This document shows positions 8,230 to 23,024 of a stretch of 64,000 bases of DNA, piece after piece. This DNA comes from a virus. The first letter of the stretch is position 1. Every line of letters begins with the position of its first letter. Location: positions 27,361 to 91,360 of the IMG/VR virus record IMGVR_UViG_3300017779_004709. One strand, written 5' to 3'. The notes below the pieces were generated by a model. It ran no database searches and was not told the origin of the DNA. It saw nothing but the letters and a program-made list of their open reading frames with translations. The position numbers and the translations under genes are program-made.

Positions 8230-8376
8230 ATGAATAAGTGGGATAGAGTAGAGAAGAAACCAAAAAGAATTAAGTATACCAAACAAGATGAACTTTTTGA
8301 TTATCTAAAAATGGGATTAATTATTTTGGTGGGATATCTATTCTTCCACTTTATAATAATGGGATGGACATTATGA
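8230..8376 (+). CDS. 48-aa C-terminally anchored membrane protein
   Basis: Basic N-terminus followed by MGLIILVGYLFFHFIIMGWTL. Confidence 0.5.
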   Translation: MNKWDRVEKKPKRIKYTKQDELFDYLKMGLIILVGYLFFHFIIMGWTL

Positions 8377-8540
8377 AATATAAGGTTATAAAAGACTATC
8401 CAACAGCAAATGGTATTCTTTATAAAGATGAGTTAGTTAATGAAGCAGGTAACTCTACTTTAAAGGGGCATATCAGAGTTAAGGATAATATGGGCCGAAT
8501 TTGGTTCGTACCGAAACAAACAATAAAAAAAATAAAATAG
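8373..8540 (+). CDS. 55-aa SH3-like small protein
   Basis: ATGA overlap; MKYKVIKDYP...GRIWFVPK resembles the SH3 pattern. Confidence 0.5.
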   Translation: MKYKVIKDYPTANGILYKDELVNEAGNSTLKGHIRVKDNMGRIWFVPKQTIKKIK

Positions 8541-8585
8541 CATAAAAAACCTATCGTTTGGGATTTTTTGTGTATATATATATTA

Positions 8586-9092
8586 TGTCTTTCGGGACAA
8601 AAGTTTTTTGACAAATTGAAAATGGAAAGTAGAGAGACTAATTATCTCTCTATGGGATTGACCGAACAATGAGTGACTTCGAAGCTCATAAGGTAATCCG
8701 CTCTTAGACTCGTGGTGAGTTGGTATTCGGGTAAATGTTCAAAATACCTTGCGACAGCATTAAGAGAATGTACTTTCAGATAAAATTAAGAACGCGATTC
8801 TTAGACCTTGTTATGGGTAAGGGTAAAACCGAAATCCCATCTTGTGACCGAATAAACTAAACTCAGAGAGTTAAGGTAATGGCACAGAGGTTGTACTCAC
8901 TTTGACGATGACTAACCATCATTGAGGAGAACCAAAGTAACTTTTGGGTGTTAGGTACAAGGTAAAAAAAATCTGAGTCTGAAAGTTGTAGGTATTCGCA
9001 AATCCTACATCCCCAAATTTTCATTTTTGGAAGGTATCTTTACAGATTGAAAAGATGAGAAGGGTGTTATTGTATTCCCTAACTTTCCATTT
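8586..9092 (+). ncRNA. Large, highly structured ncRNA candidate (family unassigned)
   Basis: No ORF on the + strand. An 11-bp closing helix (8620-8630/9082-9092) encloses more than 10 nested helices. The region is visibly richer in G/C than other intergenic DNA and a terminator follows. Confidence 0.7.
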
Positions 9093-9096
9093 ATTT

Positions 9097-9163
9097 AGGT
9101 GGTGAGGCTTTCTTACATATACCCGATAATTTTAATTATCTAAAACTCACCACCTTTTTTTTT
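9097..9163 (+). terminator. Intrinsic terminator-like long hairpin with U-tract
   Basis: AGGTGGTGAG 9097-9106 / CTCACCACCT 9146-9155, followed by a T run. Confidence 0.7.
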
Positions 9164-9197
9164 AGCAAAAAATTTGTGTTGTTTTTAAAACAAACCA

Positions 9198-9206
9198 ATA
9201 CTTATA
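9198..9206 (+). promoter_or_regulatory. ATACTTAT(A) motif, candidate phage-specific promoter
   Basis: Recurs intergenically at 6380 (TACTTAT), 15079, 53525, 58364 and 59254. Confidence 0.55.
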
Positions 9207-9272
9207 GTTGTACAGAAAAATATGTACAATTACAAAATAACAAATAAACATAAACAAATAAGGAGATAACAA

Positions 9273-10043
9273 ATGGATATTGAAGCCGTAAGAAAGCGAC
9301 TAAACCAGTTACAAACCTCAACTACAAGAACAACAAACTTGTGGAAACCTCAACCAGGAAAGACACAAATCCGTCTTTTACCTTACAAACTAAATCAAGA
9401 AGTTCCTTTTATCGAACTATTCTTTCATTATGATTTAGGTGGAAAGTCTTATCTTTCACCAATCTCATTTGGTAGACCAGATCCGATTGAAGAATTTGCT
9501 GAAAAACTAAAGTCAAGTGGAAATCGTGAAGATTGGAGACTTGGTAAGAAGTTAGAAGCAAAACTCAGAACTTTTGCACCAGTTTGTGTTCGTGGTGAAG
9601 AAAACCAAGGCTCTAAGTTTTGGGGATTTGGTAAAACCGTATATCAAGAACTACTATCAATTATAGCAGATCCTGATTATGGTGATATTAGTGATCCAGT
9701 TAATGGACGCGATGTAGTGGTTGAATTCCTAACAGCTGAAGAAACAGGAGCGTCGTTTCTTAAGACTAACATCCGTGTTAAACCAAACCAAACACCAGTT
9801 ACAGAAGATAAAGCAGTTTTATCTACATTACTTGATGACCAAAAAGATATCCGTGAGGTATATAATGAGTTAAGTTATGATGAACTTGCAGAAGCTTTAC
9901 AAGATTGGTTAAACCCAAGTGAAGATGGTGAAGATAAAGGCTCAGACAATTCCGTACCAGCATCAACAACAAAGAAATTAGAAAGTGCAGTAACAAACAC
10001 TTCTAATGTTAGTGATGCTTTTGATGACCTGTTTAATAAATAG
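9273..10043 (+). CDS. Single-stranded DNA-binding protein, T4 gp32-like
   Basis: LWKP...IRLLP, WGFGKTVY, GDISDPVNGRD, acidic tail FDDLF; adjacent to recA. Confidence 0.8.
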   Translation: MDIEAVRKRLNQLQTSTTRTTNLWKPQPGKTQIRLLPYKLNQEVPFIELFFHYDLGGKSYLSPISFGRPDPIEEFAEKLKSSGNREDWRLGKKLEAKLRTFAPVCVRGEENQGSKFWGFGKTVYQELLSIIADPDYGDISDPVNGRDVVVEFLTAEETGASFLKTNIRVKPNQTPVTEDKAVLSTLLDDQKDIREVYNELSYDELAEALQDWLNPSEDGEDKGSDNSVPASTTKKLESAVTNTSNVSDAFDDLFNK

Positions 10044-10057
10044 AAAAGGAGACATAT

Positions 10058-11164
10058 ATGTCTATATCAGCAAAAGATGAACTTGCACAAGTTCTTGCCG
10101 ATAACCTTAATAAGCAGTTCAAGGATACGAAAGTAGCCTATTTCTTAGATGGTTCAAATGCTACACCAACAGATGTAAAGGAATTTATATCAACTGGTTC
10201 ATCAATTTTAGATCTAGCAATCTCCAATCGTCCTAATGGTGGAATAGCCGTAGGACGAATTACGGAGATAAATGGTTTAGAATCAAGTGGTAAATCTCTA
10301 ATAGGAACTCACATTCTTTCAGAAACTCAGAAGAAAGGTGGTATAGCAGTTTATATCGATACCGAAACTTCTGTTAGTAGAGAATGGTTAGAAACTATTG
10401 GTGTTAATGTTCAAGACTTGTTATATCTTCATGTCGAAACCGTAGAAGATATATTTCAATGTATTGAAAACATTGTTACCAAGATTAGGGAATCAGATAG
10501 AGATAGGTTAGTTACAATCCTCGTGGATAGTTTAGCAGGGGCATCGACCAAAGTAGAGATGGAAGCCGATTTCGAGAAAGATGGATGGGCAACAAGTAAA
10601 GCAATTATCGTTTCTAAAGCGATGAGGAAGGTTACACAAATGATTGGTAGAGAAAGAATAGCTCTTGTCTTTACTAATCAACTCAGACAGAAACTCGGAG
10701 TAATGTTCGGTGATCCTTGGACAACAAGTGGTGGTAAGGCATTACCATTTCACTCATCAACTCGTATTCGTTTAAAGAATATGGGACAAATCAAAGATAC
10801 AGCAAAAAATGTATTGGGTATGAAAACTCGATGTCAGATTATCAAGAATCGTTTAGGCCCACCATTACGACATGCCGATTTCAATTTATACTTCGATAGT
10901 GGTATAGATGATATGGGAAGTTGGTTAACGGTCCTGAAAGAACACAAACTCTTGAAAGTTGCTGGAGCTTGGTACACTTTAGAATATAAAGGTAAGGATA
11001 TCAAATTTCAATCTAAAGACTTTGATAAGAAGTTGAAAGAAACTGATGGACTACAAGAACACCTTTATGATTTAATCTGTGAAGCATCCATACTGAAATA
11101 CCAATCAAAAGATTTAGGTATTGATGATGTGGTTTACACAGATGAAGTGATTGGTGATGAATAA
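10058..11164 (+). CDS. uvsX: RecA/UvsX recombinase
   Basis: ISTGS, GLESSGKS, VDSLA, FTNQLR, TTSGGKALPFHS, GAWY. Confidence 0.92.
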   Translation: MSISAKDELAQVLADNLNKQFKDTKVAYFLDGSNATPTDVKEFISTGSSILDLAISNRPNGGIAVGRITEINGLESSGKSLIGTHILSETQKKGGIAVYIDTETSVSREWLETIGVNVQDLLYLHVETVEDIFQCIENIVTKIRESDRDRLVTILVDSLAGASTKVEMEADFEKDGWATSKAIIVSKAMRKVTQMIGRERIALVFTNQLRQKLGVMFGDPWTTSGGKALPFHSSTRIRLKNMGQIKDTAKNVLGMKTRCQIIKNRLGPPLRHADFNLYFDSGIDDMGSWLTVLKEHKLLKVAGAWYTLEYKGKDIKFQSKDFDKKLKETDGLQEHLYDLICEASILKYQSKDLGIDDVVYTDEVIGDE

Positions 11165-15063: not shown

Positions 15064-15118
15064 AAATCTATATATATCATACTTATATGAGGTAAAGTTA
15101 TGGAAAGCAAATTAAAAA

Positions 15119-22223: not shown

Positions 22224-22304
22224 TAATGTCAAAGATTTTTTTGATTTTGAGAAATAAGTTTGATATATATGTATATATCATATTAACATAAGGAGAAATG
22301 ATAA

Positions 22305-23024
22305 ATGAATAAATACAAATTAACTCGATTCATTGACAAGTACCATTTAGGTGGTAATGTTAATGCAGTAGTTATCAACAGCAAGAGTGATAAATTATCT
22401 ACTCGATTCATTACTGGTGATAAAGCACTACTCGGAGAATTGAAGATGAATAATTGGACATTCGAGGATTCCGAATTGGGAGTTTATGATACAGAACAAC
22501 TTAGTAGATTACTTGGTGTTTTGGATGATGATGTAACCCTTAATTTGACTCAGGCGGGTGATAAGGCAATCGCCGTTGAGATTTCTGATGCACTATCCAA
22601 AGTCAACTTTATGTTGTCGGATAAATCAGTTATCAATCAACCACCGCCACTAAAACAACTTCCTGAATTTCAGGTAGAGATTAAAGTGGATTCCAATTTC
22701 ATTAATAGATTCATTAGTGGTAAATCTGCATTACCAGATACAGATACCTTTACGGTAATAGCTGATGATGATGGAGTGAAACTTGTAATAGGTTATTCTT
22801 CAATCAACACAAACAGAGTTACAATTCCTGTTGAGACTACAGCAACATCTAAAATAGAAAATGTATCTTTTAACGCAAATCTATTTAAGGATGTTCTTAC
22901 AGCAAATAAAGAATGTGAAAGTGCAACACTATATGTTAGTGAACAAGGGTTATCAAAAATCAACTTCAAGGTTGATGATTATGATGCTACTTACTTTCTT
23001 GTAGCCGTTCAAGACGTTGATTGA
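22305..23024 (+). CDS. DNA sliding clamp (gp45/PCNA-like)
   Basis: About 240 aa with a two-domain beta-rich pattern, GVYD...L motif and C-terminal GLSKINF...ATYFLVA; lies next to the polymerase. Confidence 0.7.
   Translation: MNKYKLTRFIDKYHLGGNVNAVVINSKSDKLSTRFITGDKALLGELKMNNWTFEDSELGVYDTEQLSRLLGVLDDDVTLNLTQAGDKAIAVEISDALSKVNFMLSDKSVINQPPPLKQLPEFQVEIKVDSNFINRFISGKSALPDTDTFTVIADDDGVKLVIGYSSINTNRVTIPVETTATSKIENVSFNANLFKDVLTANKECESATLYVSEQGLSKINFKVDDYDATYFLVAVQDVD

What the first reader, a model, noticed from the sequence alone, without database searches (positions are those of the whole stretch)
8586..9163. Large ornate non-coding RNA candidate (~480-570 nt) with its own terminator, upstream of the replication operon
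Seen: this is the largest stretch of the window with no + strand gene, and it folds hierarchically. A UUCG hairpin lies at 8586-8599. The closing helix is AAATGGAAAGT 8620-8630 / ACTTTCCATTT 9082-9092. 5' domain helices: TAGAGAGA 8630-8637 / TCTCTCTA 8645-8652; GGATTGACC 8655-8663 / GGTAATCC 8692-8699 enclosing ATGAG/CTCAT; CTCTTAG 8701-8707 / TTAAGAG 8760-8766 enclosing GACTC/GAGTT and GGTATT/AATACC. A long-range helix ACTTTCAGA 8772-8780 / TCTGAAAGT 8978-8986 encloses TAAGAA/TTCTTA, ATGGG/CCCAT and ACTCAGA 8861-8867 / TCTGAGT 8972-8978. TGTAGG/CCTACA spans 8987-9009. ACCTTGT 8805-8811 can pair with ACAAGGT 8957-8963, crossing the ACTCAGA helix and competing with TTGTAC/GTACAA, so a pseudoknot or switch is possible. 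A 10-bp hairpin with a U-tract follows. I did not recognise tmRNA, RNase P or group I/II intron signatures. Knowledge: phages carry large ornate RNAs of unknown function such as ROOL and GOLLD. Inference: this is a divergent member of such a class or a new class.
Basis: partly seen in the sequence, partly recalled or inferred. Interest (0 to 1): 0.88.

Follow-up and report, generated by a model that had tools for sequence, protein, structure and literature searches.

The report
Two-core manA-type phage RNA gene
The gene-free stretch upstream of the phage's single-strand DNA-binding protein gene is a real, strongly conserved folded RNA of about 425 bases. It is an enlarged relative of the known "manA" RNA, with one manA-like core nested inside another, and not a new class; its role in infection is still unknown.

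Summary
Window 8603-9027 (+) is a conserved, non-coding, highly structured RNA. More than 100 full-length copies were found in marine viral contigs. Of 114 modelled base pairs, 80 show compensatory changes; 93% of cells are paired, against 35-46% when partners are slid.

It is not a new class. Rfam's manA model (RF01745) hits 8812-9013 above its gathering score. The 5' domain is a second manA-like core. Topologically, an outer complete manA (P1-P9) carries an inner P1'/P3'/P4'-P7' module inserted into P8. Two tertiary pairings covary: the L3' loop with the 3' strand of P8, and L8 with L9.

Its 3' arm belongs to an accessory stem-loop cassette (9027-9091) found in a minority of relatives.

Conserved flanks suggest a stand-alone gene rather than a switch for the SSB gene: an upstream terminator-like hairpin, an AT-rich box, a 5' hairpin and a downstream terminator. 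In addition, 17 of 40 related loci lack the RNA yet keep the SSB leader.

Function is untested. Most likely it is a self-assembling structural RNA, like the short manA RNAs in a 2026 cryo-EM preprint.

This scan has already reported the same two-core RNA on other genomes.

The parts
8544..8569 (+). Terminator-like hairpin (A-tract, short GC stem, T-tract) that closes the upstream gene block (stop codon at 8538-8540)
   Evidence: Conserved at this place in relatives, with covarying stems: AAAACCC/GGGTTTT in L115, AAATCTCA/TGAGATTT in L183, ATCCCAAAA/TTTTGGGAT in L120. Its function is inferred.
8573..8586 (+). AT-rich box TATATATATATTAT, the putative promoter of the RNA
   Evidence: A TATATATA(A/T)(A/T)AT-type box lies at a fixed distance before the 5' hairpin in nearly all relatives. 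The consensus scan reads TTGGGA-17-TATTAT here. The box is not enriched in the window as a whole (16 matches against 15 expected). Promoter function is inferred.
8586..8599 (+). 5' hairpin with a UUCG loop, probably at or near the 5' end of the transcript
   Evidence: Relatives have a hairpin at the same place with unrelated sequences. L013, L015, L017 and L135 carry a longer one.
8603..9027 (+). Conserved two-core manA-family RNA, about 425 nt
   Evidence: A profile search finds 109 full-length copies with the same ends. The structure of 114 pairs is 93.3% paired, and 80 pairs show compensatory changes. The core folds at z = -3.0.
8603..8611 (+). Nearly invariant GUUUUUUGA at the start of the conserved RNA; role unknown
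   Evidence: Invariant columns in alignments A1 and A2. No partner that covaries with it was found.
8612..8625 (+). 5' strand of the terminal AU-rich helix; partner 9013-9029
   Evidence: Each sequence's own 5'/3' duplex averages -9.46 kcal/mol against -8.16 for cross-pairings; 0 of 2000 permutations reach the observed mean.
8630..8652 (+). Outer P1 hairpin
   Evidence: 99.5% paired; 5 of 7 pairs show compensatory changes. Aligned to manA P1.
8654..8658 (+). Outer P2, 5' arm GGGAU; pairs with AUCCC at 9009-9013 and closes the whole manA body
   Evidence: 100% paired; 2 pairs show double changes. Corresponds to the enclosing helix GGGaG/CuCCC of the Rfam model.
8659..8699 (+). Outer P3 element UGACCGAAcAA-hairpin-UAAGGUAAU
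   Evidence: Helices 8661-63/8692-94 and 8669-74/8684-89 are 94.5% and 100% paired and covary. Aligned to the manA consensus and to the inner-core model R1 (E 0.009 within 8590-8812).
8701..8766 (+). Outer four-way junction: P4 8701-06/8761-66; P5 8707-11/8717-21 with loop GUGGU; P6 8722-27/8743-48; P7 8750-52/8757-59 with loop GACA
   Evidence: All 6 P4 pairs and all 3 P7 pairs are compensatory. P6 is variable and poorly aligned. The GUGGUG loop equals the Rfam consensus L5.
8772..8780 (+). P8 outer stem, 5' strand; partner 8978-8986
   Evidence: 47-54 of 55 sequences paired once the register is corrected, with CG/UA/AU/GC swaps.
8787..8803 (+). P8 apical hairpin, with L8 loop at 8793-8797
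   Evidence: The stem is 79% paired. Loop positions 8794-8797 pair with L9 positions 8996-8999: 95.9% paired, all 4 pairs compensatory, six complementary variants.
8805..8811 (+). Stalk carrying the inner core, 5' strand; partner 8957-8963
   Evidence: 94.5% paired; 5 of 7 pairs compensatory.
8812..8956 (+). Inner manA-like core: P1' 8813-17/8836-40; P3' 8847-49/8875-77 and 8855-58/8869-72; P4' 8880-85/8948-53; P5' 8887-89/8896-98 (loop GUUGUA); P6' 8900-03/8926-29 and 8906-11/8919-24 (loop CUAACCA); P7' 8932-37/8942-47 (loop GUAAC)
   Evidence: Part of the Rfam manA hit 8812-9013, 67.7 bits. Helices are 93-100% paired with many compensatory pairs.
8862..8867 (+). Pseudoknot PK1: L3' loop CUCAGA pairs with UCUGAG at 8972-8977, in the A-rich 3' strand of P8
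   Evidence: 100% paired. Pair 8865/8974 occurs as AU 26, GC 18, UA 10; pair 8864/8975 as CG 26, UA 26.
8964..8977 (+). Conserved A-rich single strand AAAAAAAAUCUGAG; its 3' half is the PK1 partner
   Evidence: Invariant AAAUC...AG columns; PK1 counts.
8987..9009 (+). P9 hairpin (8988-92/9004-08) with 11-nt loop UAUUCGCAAAU (L9)
   Evidence: 100% paired; 3 pairs compensatory. The central loop bases covary with L8.
9027..9091 (+). Accessory stem-loop cassette between the RNA and the terminator; not part of the conserved RNA
   Evidence: Present in 7 of 55 representatives. Its own arms, 9028-36 and 9082-90, pair with each other. Partial copies lie elsewhere in relatives.
9097..9163 (+). Intrinsic-terminator-like hairpin (AGGTGGTGAG / CTCACCACCT, long interior) followed by a T-run at 9155-9163
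   Evidence: A hairpin plus T-tract follows the RNA in nearly all relatives, about 20 nt after CAUCCCC, and the outer stems covary. It is kept in L002 and L003, which lack the RNA.
9273..10043 (+). Downstream gene: gp32-like single-strand DNA-binding protein, followed by a UvsX-like recombinase (10058-11164)
   Evidence: PHROG matches to single-strand DNA-binding protein and to UvsX-like recombinase.

Best explanation
Window 8603-9027 (+) is a gene for a stand-alone non-coding RNA of the manA family (Rfam RF01745) in an enlarged two-core form.

Architecture. An outer, complete manA fold has P1, the closing helix P2, P3, a four-way junction P4-P7, P8 and P9. Into the 3' side of its P8 internal loop is inserted a stalk that bears a second, partial manA core (P1', P3', P4'-P7'). 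A terminal AU-rich helix clamps the 5' and 3' ends. Two tertiary pairings hold the fold together or link copies: L3' with the A-rich 3' strand of P8, and L8 with L9.

Transcription (inferred). The RNA is probably made from its own AT-rich promoter box (8573-8586). It probably starts with a protective 5' hairpin (8586-8599) and ends at the terminator 9097-9163. In this genome the 3' part also contains a 65-nt accessory stem-loop cassette.

Mode of action (inferred, untested). It most likely acts in trans as a structural RNA that binds copies of itself through its conserved apical loops. The L8-L9 complementarity is kept here, and short manA RNAs use it between subunits to build pentamer-based decamers and 60-mer cages in vitro.

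My odds: manA-family two-core RNA 0.95; stand-alone gene rather than cis-regulator 0.75; homo-oligomeric assembly as the mode of action 0.4. The biological role in infection is not known.
For: Family. Rfam manA hits 8812-9013 at 67.7 bits against a gathering score of 55.2. The 5' domain searched alone aligns to manA positions 1-160 through P1, GGGAU, UGACCGAA...UAAGGU and the GUGGUG loop; E is 0.23 over 4227 families. In relative L144 the Rfam model gives two adjacent hits, 73.4 bits and 28.4 bits (E 5.4e-7), so the outer core is manA-like as well.

Structure. On 55 sequences below 95% identity, 114 pairs are 93.3% paired against 35-46% for slid partners. 80 pairs have compensatory changes. 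The covariation score is 0.494 against at most 0.142, and 0 of 500 shuffles reach it. The terminal helix is tested.

Non-coding: ORFs are kept in 3 of 55 relatives.

Stand-alone unit:
- Conserved upstream terminator-like hairpin, AT box and 5' hairpin.
- A terminator-like hairpin about 20 nt after the RNA in most relatives.
- 17 of 40 related SSB loci lack the RNA but keep a 90-125 nt SSB leader.
- L003 is an empty site with the AT box abutting the terminator, and L002 holds a different 90-nt insert.

Expression (weak). 13 RNA-library runs hold the stretch, among holders drawn from 8 studies in all. Contigs from four of those studies cover about 8608-9150, and none covers 8272-8523.

Assembly. 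A cryo-EM preprint reports decamers and 60-mers of short manA RNAs built through L5-L7' and L8-L9' or L3-L8' kissing loops (10.64898/2026.07.01.735769).
Against: - No experiment bears on this RNA. Transcript ends are inferred from sequence motifs and contig-level RNA data, which cannot show ends, strand or level.
- Covariation of L8 with L9 cannot distinguish pairing within one molecule from pairing between copies.
- The two cores are only weakly alike. A model of the inner core finds the outer one at 8.3 bits: E 2.6 window-wide and 0.009 in the a priori region.
- The L5/L7-type loop complementarity (UGGU/ACCA) cannot be tested because the loops are nearly invariant. It is absent in the L019/L020 subgroup.
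- The RNA sits before the SSB gene, on the same strand, in nearly all carriers. A link to that gene is therefore not excluded.
- The AT box is not enriched in the window.
- The assembly data come from a preprint on RNAs under 200 nt, studied in vitro.
Confidence: 0.6

Rival explanations
1. Cis-regulatory leader (riboswitch or attenuator). The RNA would sense a ligand or protein and control read-through of the terminator at 9097-9163 into the SSB-UvsX replication and recombination genes. This is how manA was first proposed to act.
For: manA was classed as a probable cis-regulatory riboswitch candidate in 5' UTRs, including those of nucleotide-synthesis genes (PMC2864571). The RNA lies on the same strand upstream of the SSB gene in nearly all carriers, with a terminator-like hairpin between them.
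Against: - 17 of 40 related loci lack the RNA yet keep the SSB leader. L002 and L003 (SSB 93-94% identical) keep the terminator without the RNA.
- The terminator does not overlap the RNA, and I saw no covarying antiterminator pairing.
- The 3' end of the RNA is held in the terminal helix with its own 5' end.
- The distance to the terminator varies by 65-95 nt through cassette insertions.
- A promoter-like sequence and a covarying hairpin lie in the SSB leader downstream of the terminator.
Confidence: 0.12
2. Trans-acting RNA that works as a monomer by binding a protein. It could be a scaffold, decoy or sponge for a phage replication protein such as SSB, or for a host RNA-binding or defence factor. 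Oligomerisation would then be an in vitro property of the family.
For: - Large invariant single-stranded elements that no helix explains: GUUUUUUGA, the 18-nt P1' loop UAAGGGUAAAACYGAAAU, AAAAAAUC, and the GACA and GUAAC loops.
- Stand-alone gene features.
- Accessory, present-or-absent distribution typical of counter-defence or fitness cargo.
Against: No candidate partner was identified or tested. The conserved loops and the L8-L9 pairing are equally explained by RNA-RNA contacts.
Confidence: 0.23
3. A selfish or decaying cassette with no present function. On this view it persists between a promoter box and a terminator only because that site tolerates insertions.
For: The site is a hot spot. 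It can be empty, hold a 90-nt insert, hold the RNA, or hold the RNA plus one of two different 3' cassettes.
Against: Selection acts on the fold. 80 compensatory pairs are kept across sequences that are only about 69% identical (mean column identity), with identical ends in 109 copies. The stretch is present in RNA libraries of several studies.
Confidence: 0.03

Closest known systems
manA RNA motif (Rfam RF01745; Weinberg et al. 2010, PMC2864571; cryo-EM preprint 10.64898/2026.07.01.735769)
   Same: - The Rfam model matches above its gathering score.
- Same order of elements: P1 hairpin, closing helix GGGAN/NUCCC, P3 with UGAC-GAAUAA...UAAGG, and a four-way junction whose first loop is GUGGUG.
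- A P8 hairpin and a P9 hairpin whose 11-nt loop carries four central bases complementary to L8. In the Rfam consensus these are CUGU/ACAG; here they are GCGA/UCGC and five other variants.
- Marine phage origin.
   Different: - About 425 nt instead of about 190.
- A second partial core (P1', P3', P4'-P7') on a stalk is inserted into P8, turning it into a three-way junction.
- The loop of the inner P3' forms a pseudoknot with the 3' strand of P8.
- An extra terminal helix and an invariant GUUUUUUGA leader.
- Outer L7 is GACA, not ACCA; an ACCA loop is found in the inner P6'.
- It looks like a gene of its own with promoter box and terminator, not a 5' UTR.
- It is carried by a phage lineage whose closest cultured relative in the phage collection is Microcystis phage Mel-JY01 (UvsX 55%, PolB 46%), not by T4-like cyanophages. 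Mel-JY01 itself has no manA match.
- Divergent members fall below Rfam's gathering score (40.5 bits).
ROOL and GOLLD (large ornate phage- and bacteria-associated RNAs that form RNA-only multimeric cages; 10.1101/2024.12.08.627333)
   Same: Large, ornate, phage-associated, apparently stand-alone non-coding RNAs of unknown biological role. Members of the family to which this RNA belongs also form closed RNA-only multimers through kissing loops.
   Different: No sequence or structure match to the ROOL or GOLLD models, even at E <= 10. This RNA is smaller (425 nt, against roughly 580 for ROOL and 800 for GOLLD from my own knowledge). It has a different fold. No assembly data exist for it.
wcaG RNA motif (RF01761), the other marine cyanophage riboswitch candidate, often found near manA
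   Same: Marine phage structured RNA of unknown function, described in the same 2010 survey. It lies a few hundred bases from manA in cyanophage S-CREM1 (PMC9964418).
   Different: No wcaG match anywhere in the window or in 8400-9300. The 5' domain here is manA-like, not wcaG-like.

Membership tests
manA RNA (Rfam RF01745) | Covariance-model score at or above the curated gathering score (55.2 bits) | tested here: met
   67.7 bits, E 4.6e-15, model positions 1-192, window 8812-9013. Relatives score 73 bits; the divergent ones score 40.5.
manA RNA (Rfam RF01745) | P1 hairpin followed by a closing helix (GGGaG...CuCCC) that encloses the rest of the RNA | tested here: met
   P1 is 8630-8652. GGGAU 8654-58 pairs with AUCCC 9009-13: 100% paired, two pairs with double changes. 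In the Rfam alignment of the inner core both arms are deleted; they belong to the outer core.
manA RNA (Rfam RF01745) | P3 element UGaCUGAAUAA-hairpin-UAAgGu | tested here: met
   Present twice, at 8659-8699 and 8845-8879. Both are aligned to the consensus and both helices covary.
manA RNA (Rfam RF01745) | Four-way junction (P4 with P5, P6, P7) whose L5 and L7 loops are complementary (GUGGUG / ACCA) | tested here: inconclusive
   Two four-way junctions are supported by covariation. Outer L5 is GUGGU, but outer L7 is GACA; an ACCA loop is in the inner P6'. The loops are nearly invariant, so pairing cannot be tested, and it is absent in the L019/L020 subgroup.
manA RNA (Rfam RF01745) | P8 and P9 hairpins with complementary loops (L8-L9) | tested here: met
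   8794-97 with 8996-99: 95.9% paired, all four pairs compensatory, six complementary variants. P8 is interrupted by the inserted core.
manA RNA (Rfam RF01745) | Position in the 5' UTR of a gene (proposed cis-regulatory role) | tested here: not met
   A terminator-like hairpin separates it from the SSB gene. The RNA is absent from 17 of 40 related loci that keep the SSB leader. This is a proposed property of the family, not a structural criterion.
manA RNA (Rfam RF01745) | Formation of pentamer-based closed oligomers in vitro | not testable with these tools
   Known only for five RNAs under 200 nt in a preprint.
ROOL / GOLLD | Match to the Rfam covariance models of these families | tested here: not met
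   At gathering score the only match in the window is manA. No ROOL or GOLLD match at E <= 10 in 8400-9300.
tRNA / tmRNA | Detection by ARAGORN | tested here: not met
   No tRNA or tmRNA gene in the whole window.

The most novel reading that the evidence does not exclude
The two-core RNA would be a natural higher-valency manA building block. Each molecule would present two sets of kissing loops (outer L5, L7, L8, L9 and inner L5', L6', L7'). In infected cells it would assemble into an RNA-only shell or lattice different from the decamers and 60-mers of short manA RNAs. Many uncultured marine phages would make it early in infection, as an accessory compartment or decoy next to their replication genes.
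Probability: 0.2. Interest if true: 0.8.

Novelty: new variant of a known kind. Interest (0 to 1): 0.55.

Why it matters
manA has been an orphan RNA since 2010. A 2026 preprint reports that short manA RNAs build RNA-only cages in vitro, but no biological role is known.

This locus gives a natural 425-nt version with two nested cores. It comes with a detailed model resting on 80 compensatory pairs and two covarying tertiary contacts, and with more than 100 homologs.

Genomic evidence suggests that, at least here, the RNA is a dispensable gene of its own and not a leader of the neighbouring gene. That moves the family away from the riboswitch hypothesis and towards a trans-acting or structural role. 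It also offers a concrete construct for cryo-EM, and present/absent sister genomes for fitness comparisons.

Rfam's model misses the outer core and the divergent members, so the family is under-annotated in marine viromes.

Tried and rejected
- DNA search of 8540-9270 against cultured and GenBank phages: no match.
- A covariance model of the inner core (R1) against the whole window: the outer core ranked only 14th (8.3 bits, E 2.6). On this test alone the internal duplication is not significant window-wide.
- A regex for the duplicated P3 motif found only one copy because I wrote it too strictly.
- RNAalifold on the MAFFT alignment missed P8, P6 and both pseudoknots. I recovered them by hand and with a pair-covariation scan.
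- A single covarying column pair, 8677/8779, has no neighbouring pairs; I treated it as chance.
- GUUUUUUGA pairing with the A-rich strand: inspection of the variants showed no correlated changes.
- L5'-L7' (GUUG/UAAC) and L5-L6' (UGGU/ACCA) loop pairings: complementary in most sequences, but invariant or broken in subgroups, so not claimed.
- AT box as a general phage promoter: not enriched, 16 matches against 15.1 expected.
- Scan of bacterial and archaeal genomes with the 19-nt motif: 112 stretches, of which only one (L230) is a real copy and the rest are chance.
- Weak Rfam matches (DUF2693 E 0.7, fstAT, snoR64, Entero_OriR): far below gathering scores, taken as chance.
- RNA-library contigs cannot give ends, strand or level. 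The uncovered upstream part (8272-8523) and the higher depth over the RNA in run X8 are hints only.
- Mel-JY01, the closest cultured phage, has no manA match and only about 117 nt before its SSB-like gene.
Full report
**What is there.** Window 8541-9272 is the gap between a block of small genes (last stop codon 8538-8540) and a gp32-like single-strand DNA-binding protein gene (9273-10043). That gene is followed by a UvsX-like recombinase and an exonuclease. The stretch 8586-9163 folds better than any of 100 dinucleotide shuffles (z = -3.5). So does the conserved core 8603-9029 (z = -3.0). The minus strand scores about the same (z = -3.4), so energy does not give the strand. Invariant G-U pairs, which would be A-C on the other strand, do. 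No tRNA or tmRNA is present.

**Known family.** Rfam's manA model (RF01745) matches 8812-9013 at 67.7 bits against a gathering score of 55.2, E 4.6e-15. It is the only family that reaches its gathering score in the 64-kb window. Nothing resembling ROOL or GOLLD appears even at E <= 10. manA was described in 2010 as a riboswitch candidate from marine metagenomes, T4-like cyanophages and two gamma-proteobacteria (PMC2864571). A 2026 preprint reports that five manA RNAs under 200 nt form pentamer-based decamers or a 60-mer cage. They do so through L5-L7' and L8-L9' or L3-L8' kissing loops (10.64898/2026.07.01.735769).

**Homologs.**
- Using the SSB protein as an anchor I fetched 80 related viral loci.
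- A 19-nt motif of the RNA then brought in further viral loci (L082-L196).
- BLAST and a profile search show that homology does not stop at the Rfam hit. It runs from about 8600 to 9025 in every carrier.
- 109 copies are full length with the same ends.
- The candidate ORFs inside are kept in only 3 of 55 representatives.

**Structure.** I aligned 55 representatives below 95% identity (A2). The final model has 114 pairs in 22 helices:
- 93.3% of cells are paired, against 35-46% when the 3' partners are slid by 1-3 columns.
- 80 pairs have compensatory double changes.
- The covariation score is 0.494, against at most 0.142 for slid partners.
- No shuffle out of 500 reaches the observed values.

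P8's outer stem was misaligned by MAFFT. In the corrected register 47-54 of 55 sequences pair, with CG, UA, AU and GC swaps. The AU-rich terminal helix (about 8612-8625 with 9013-9029) cannot be aligned column by column. However, each sequence's own 5' and 3' segments pair better than mismatched partners (-9.46 against -8.16 kcal/mol; 0 of 2000 permutations).

**Architecture.**
- The closing helix GGGAU (8654-58) / AUCCC (9009-13) corresponds to the enclosing helix of the Rfam model. It is deleted in the Rfam alignment of 8812-9013.
- Downstream of GGGAU lie a P3 element (UGACCGAAcAA-hairpin-UAAGGUAAU) and a four-way junction whose first loop is GUGGUG, exactly as in the manA consensus.
- Searched alone, 8625-8812 aligns to manA positions 1-160. 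E is 0.23 over 4227 families, which is about 5e-5 for this one family.
- In relative L144 the Rfam model gives two adjacent hits, 73.4 and 28.4 bits (E 5.4e-7).
- A model built from the inner core alone recognises only the P3 element of the outer core (8.3 bits; E 0.009 in the a priori region, 2.6 window-wide). The two cores are therefore old, diverged copies.

Topologically the outer manA is complete (P1, P2, P3, P4-P7, P8 with its L8 hairpin 8787-8803, and P9). A stalk (8805-11/8957-63) bearing P1', P3' and P4'-P7' is inserted on the 3' side of the P8 internal loop.

**Tertiary contacts.** A scan for covarying column pairs found two pairings outside the nested structure.
- PK1: the L3' loop 8862-8867 pairs with 8972-8977 in the conserved A-rich strand. 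It is 100% paired, and pair 8865/8974 occurs as AU, GC and UA.
- PK2: L8 positions 8794-8797 pair with L9 positions 8996-8999. It is 95.9% paired and all four pairs are compensatory. Six complementary variants occur: GCGA/UCGC, ACGA/UCGU, AUGA/UCAU, GCA/UGC, GAGA/UCUC and GCC/GGC.

The Rfam consensus shows the same L8/L9 complementarity (CUGU/ACAG). In the preprint this contact joins neighbouring subunits. Covariation cannot say whether it acts within or between molecules here.

The proposed closing helix 8620-8630/9082-9092 is not conserved. The segment 9027-9091 is an accessory cassette present in 7 of 55 representatives. Its 3' arm ACUUUCCAA pairs with the cassette's own 5' arm UUGGAAAGU (9028-36). 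It stays complementary to that arm in L017 and L164, whose RNA leader reads GAGAAG. L001 and L006 lack the cassette altogether.

**Is it a leader or a gene?**

Upstream, relatives share three features in order:
- An A-tract/GC-stem/T-tract hairpin with covarying stems (window 8544-8569).
- An AT-rich box (8573-8586).
- A hairpin at a fixed place whose sequence differs completely between lineages (window 8586-8599).

Downstream, a long hairpin with covarying outer stem and a T-tract starts about 20 nt after CAUCCCC in most relatives. In the window it lies at 9097-9163, after the cassette.

Presence and absence:
- Of 40 SSB-anchored loci with at least 700 nt upstream, 23 carry the RNA.
- The other 17 do not, and keep a 90-125 nt SSB leader.
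- L003 (SSB 93% identical) is an empty site in which the AT box abuts the terminator.
- L002 (94%) has an unrelated insert of about 90 nt.

I saw no antiterminator pairing. These facts favour a dispensable, separately transcribed RNA gene over a switch for the SSB gene. Promoter, start and stop are still inferred.

Expression evidence is weak. 13 RNA-library runs hold the stretch, among holders drawn from 8 studies in all. Contigs from four of those studies cover about 8608-9150, while none covers 8272-8523. Contigs cannot give ends, strand or level.

**Carrier.** The record is a 91-kb fragment, about 48% complete, of an uncultured marine phage. The closest cultured relative in the collection is Microcystis phage Mel-JY01 (UvsX 55%, PolB 46%). 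Mel-JY01 has no manA match and no long gap before its SSB-like gene. Among 112 motif matches in bacterial and archaeal genomes only one is real. It is a syntenic phage contig binned into a Candidatus Pelagibacter MAG, which is a weak hint at most about the host.

**Novelty.** The family is known. The nested two-core form is not mentioned in the 2010 paper or the 2026 preprint. The full-text searches I ran also turned up no description of it. Rfam's 192-position model covers less than half of it and misses divergent members (40.5 bits). This scan has already reported the same kind of RNA on other genomes, including relatives where it also lies before ssb. My analysis was done independently and agrees. 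It adds the two covarying tertiary contacts, the present/absent polymorphism with an empty site, and the rejection of the 9082-9092 closing helix.

**Verdict.** It is a real structured RNA gene and a new variant of a known kind. The mechanism is inferred and the function is unknown.

Noticed in passing
window 9027-9091; L068:3792-3827; L079:3794-3828; L005:771-915: The 65-nt stem-loop cassette between the RNA and its terminator looks like a small repeated or mobile element. A 36-nt part (9049-9084) recurs downstream of the SSB gene in L068 and L079. In L005, 9026-9172 lies far from the SSB gene and without the RNA. Its 5' end (UUGGAAAGUAU) resembles the RNA's own leader (AUGGAAAGUAG).
   Followed up: partly
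L003:1975-2075 and L002:1215-1400: Close relatives show other states of the same site. L003 is empty, with the AT box directly followed by the terminator. L002 keeps the AT box and 5' hairpin but carries an unrelated insert of about 90 nt, which resembles the 3' extension seen after the RNA in L158.
   Followed up: partly
L002:1423-1635; also L003 and L164: A small ORF of about 70 aa (M.IYWNKYYGYDE...) is inserted between the terminator and the SSB leader in some relatives. It is absent from the window.
   Followed up: no
window 9208-9229: There is an inverted repeat TTGTACA/TGTACAA in the SSB leader, about 45 nt before the start codon. It covaries in relatives (TTGTATAT/ATATACAA in L002). It may be an operator or mRNA hairpin for SSB autoregulation, by analogy with T4 gene 32.
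   Followed up: no
relatives, e.g. L178, about 20-80 nt after the RNA; window 9097-9163: In most relatives the terminator-like hairpin has a long interior that is conserved in sequence (GAUUUUUAGUUUCCAC...AAACUUAAAAAC), while its outer stem covaries freely. The interior may carry a signal of its own. The window has a different interior.
   Followed up: no
L230:4290-4721 (NHJA01000041.1): A full copy of the RNA, with syntenic SSB, UvsX, exonuclease and methyltransferase genes, lies on a 16-kb contig binned into a 'Candidatus Pelagibacter sp. TMED203' MAG. This is probably a phage contig binned by composition. At most it is a weak hint at a SAR11 host.
   Followed up: partly
window 8603-8611: The nearly invariant GUUUUUUGA at the start of the conserved RNA has no covarying partner and no explanation. 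The embedded TTGACA has no usable -10 box at the right distance.
   Followed up: partly
window 15069-15080 and 22272-22283: Boxes similar to the AT-rich box before the RNA lie just upstream of the ribonucleotide reductase gene (15119) and of the gene at 22305. The motif is not enriched in the window overall.
   Followed up: no
window 8818-8835: The 18-nt loop of the inner P1' (UAAGGGUAAAACCGAAAU) is almost invariant. It contains a small apical stem that covaries (GGG..CC against CCC..GG in the L019 group). It is far larger than the P1 loop of the Rfam consensus.
   Followed up: partly
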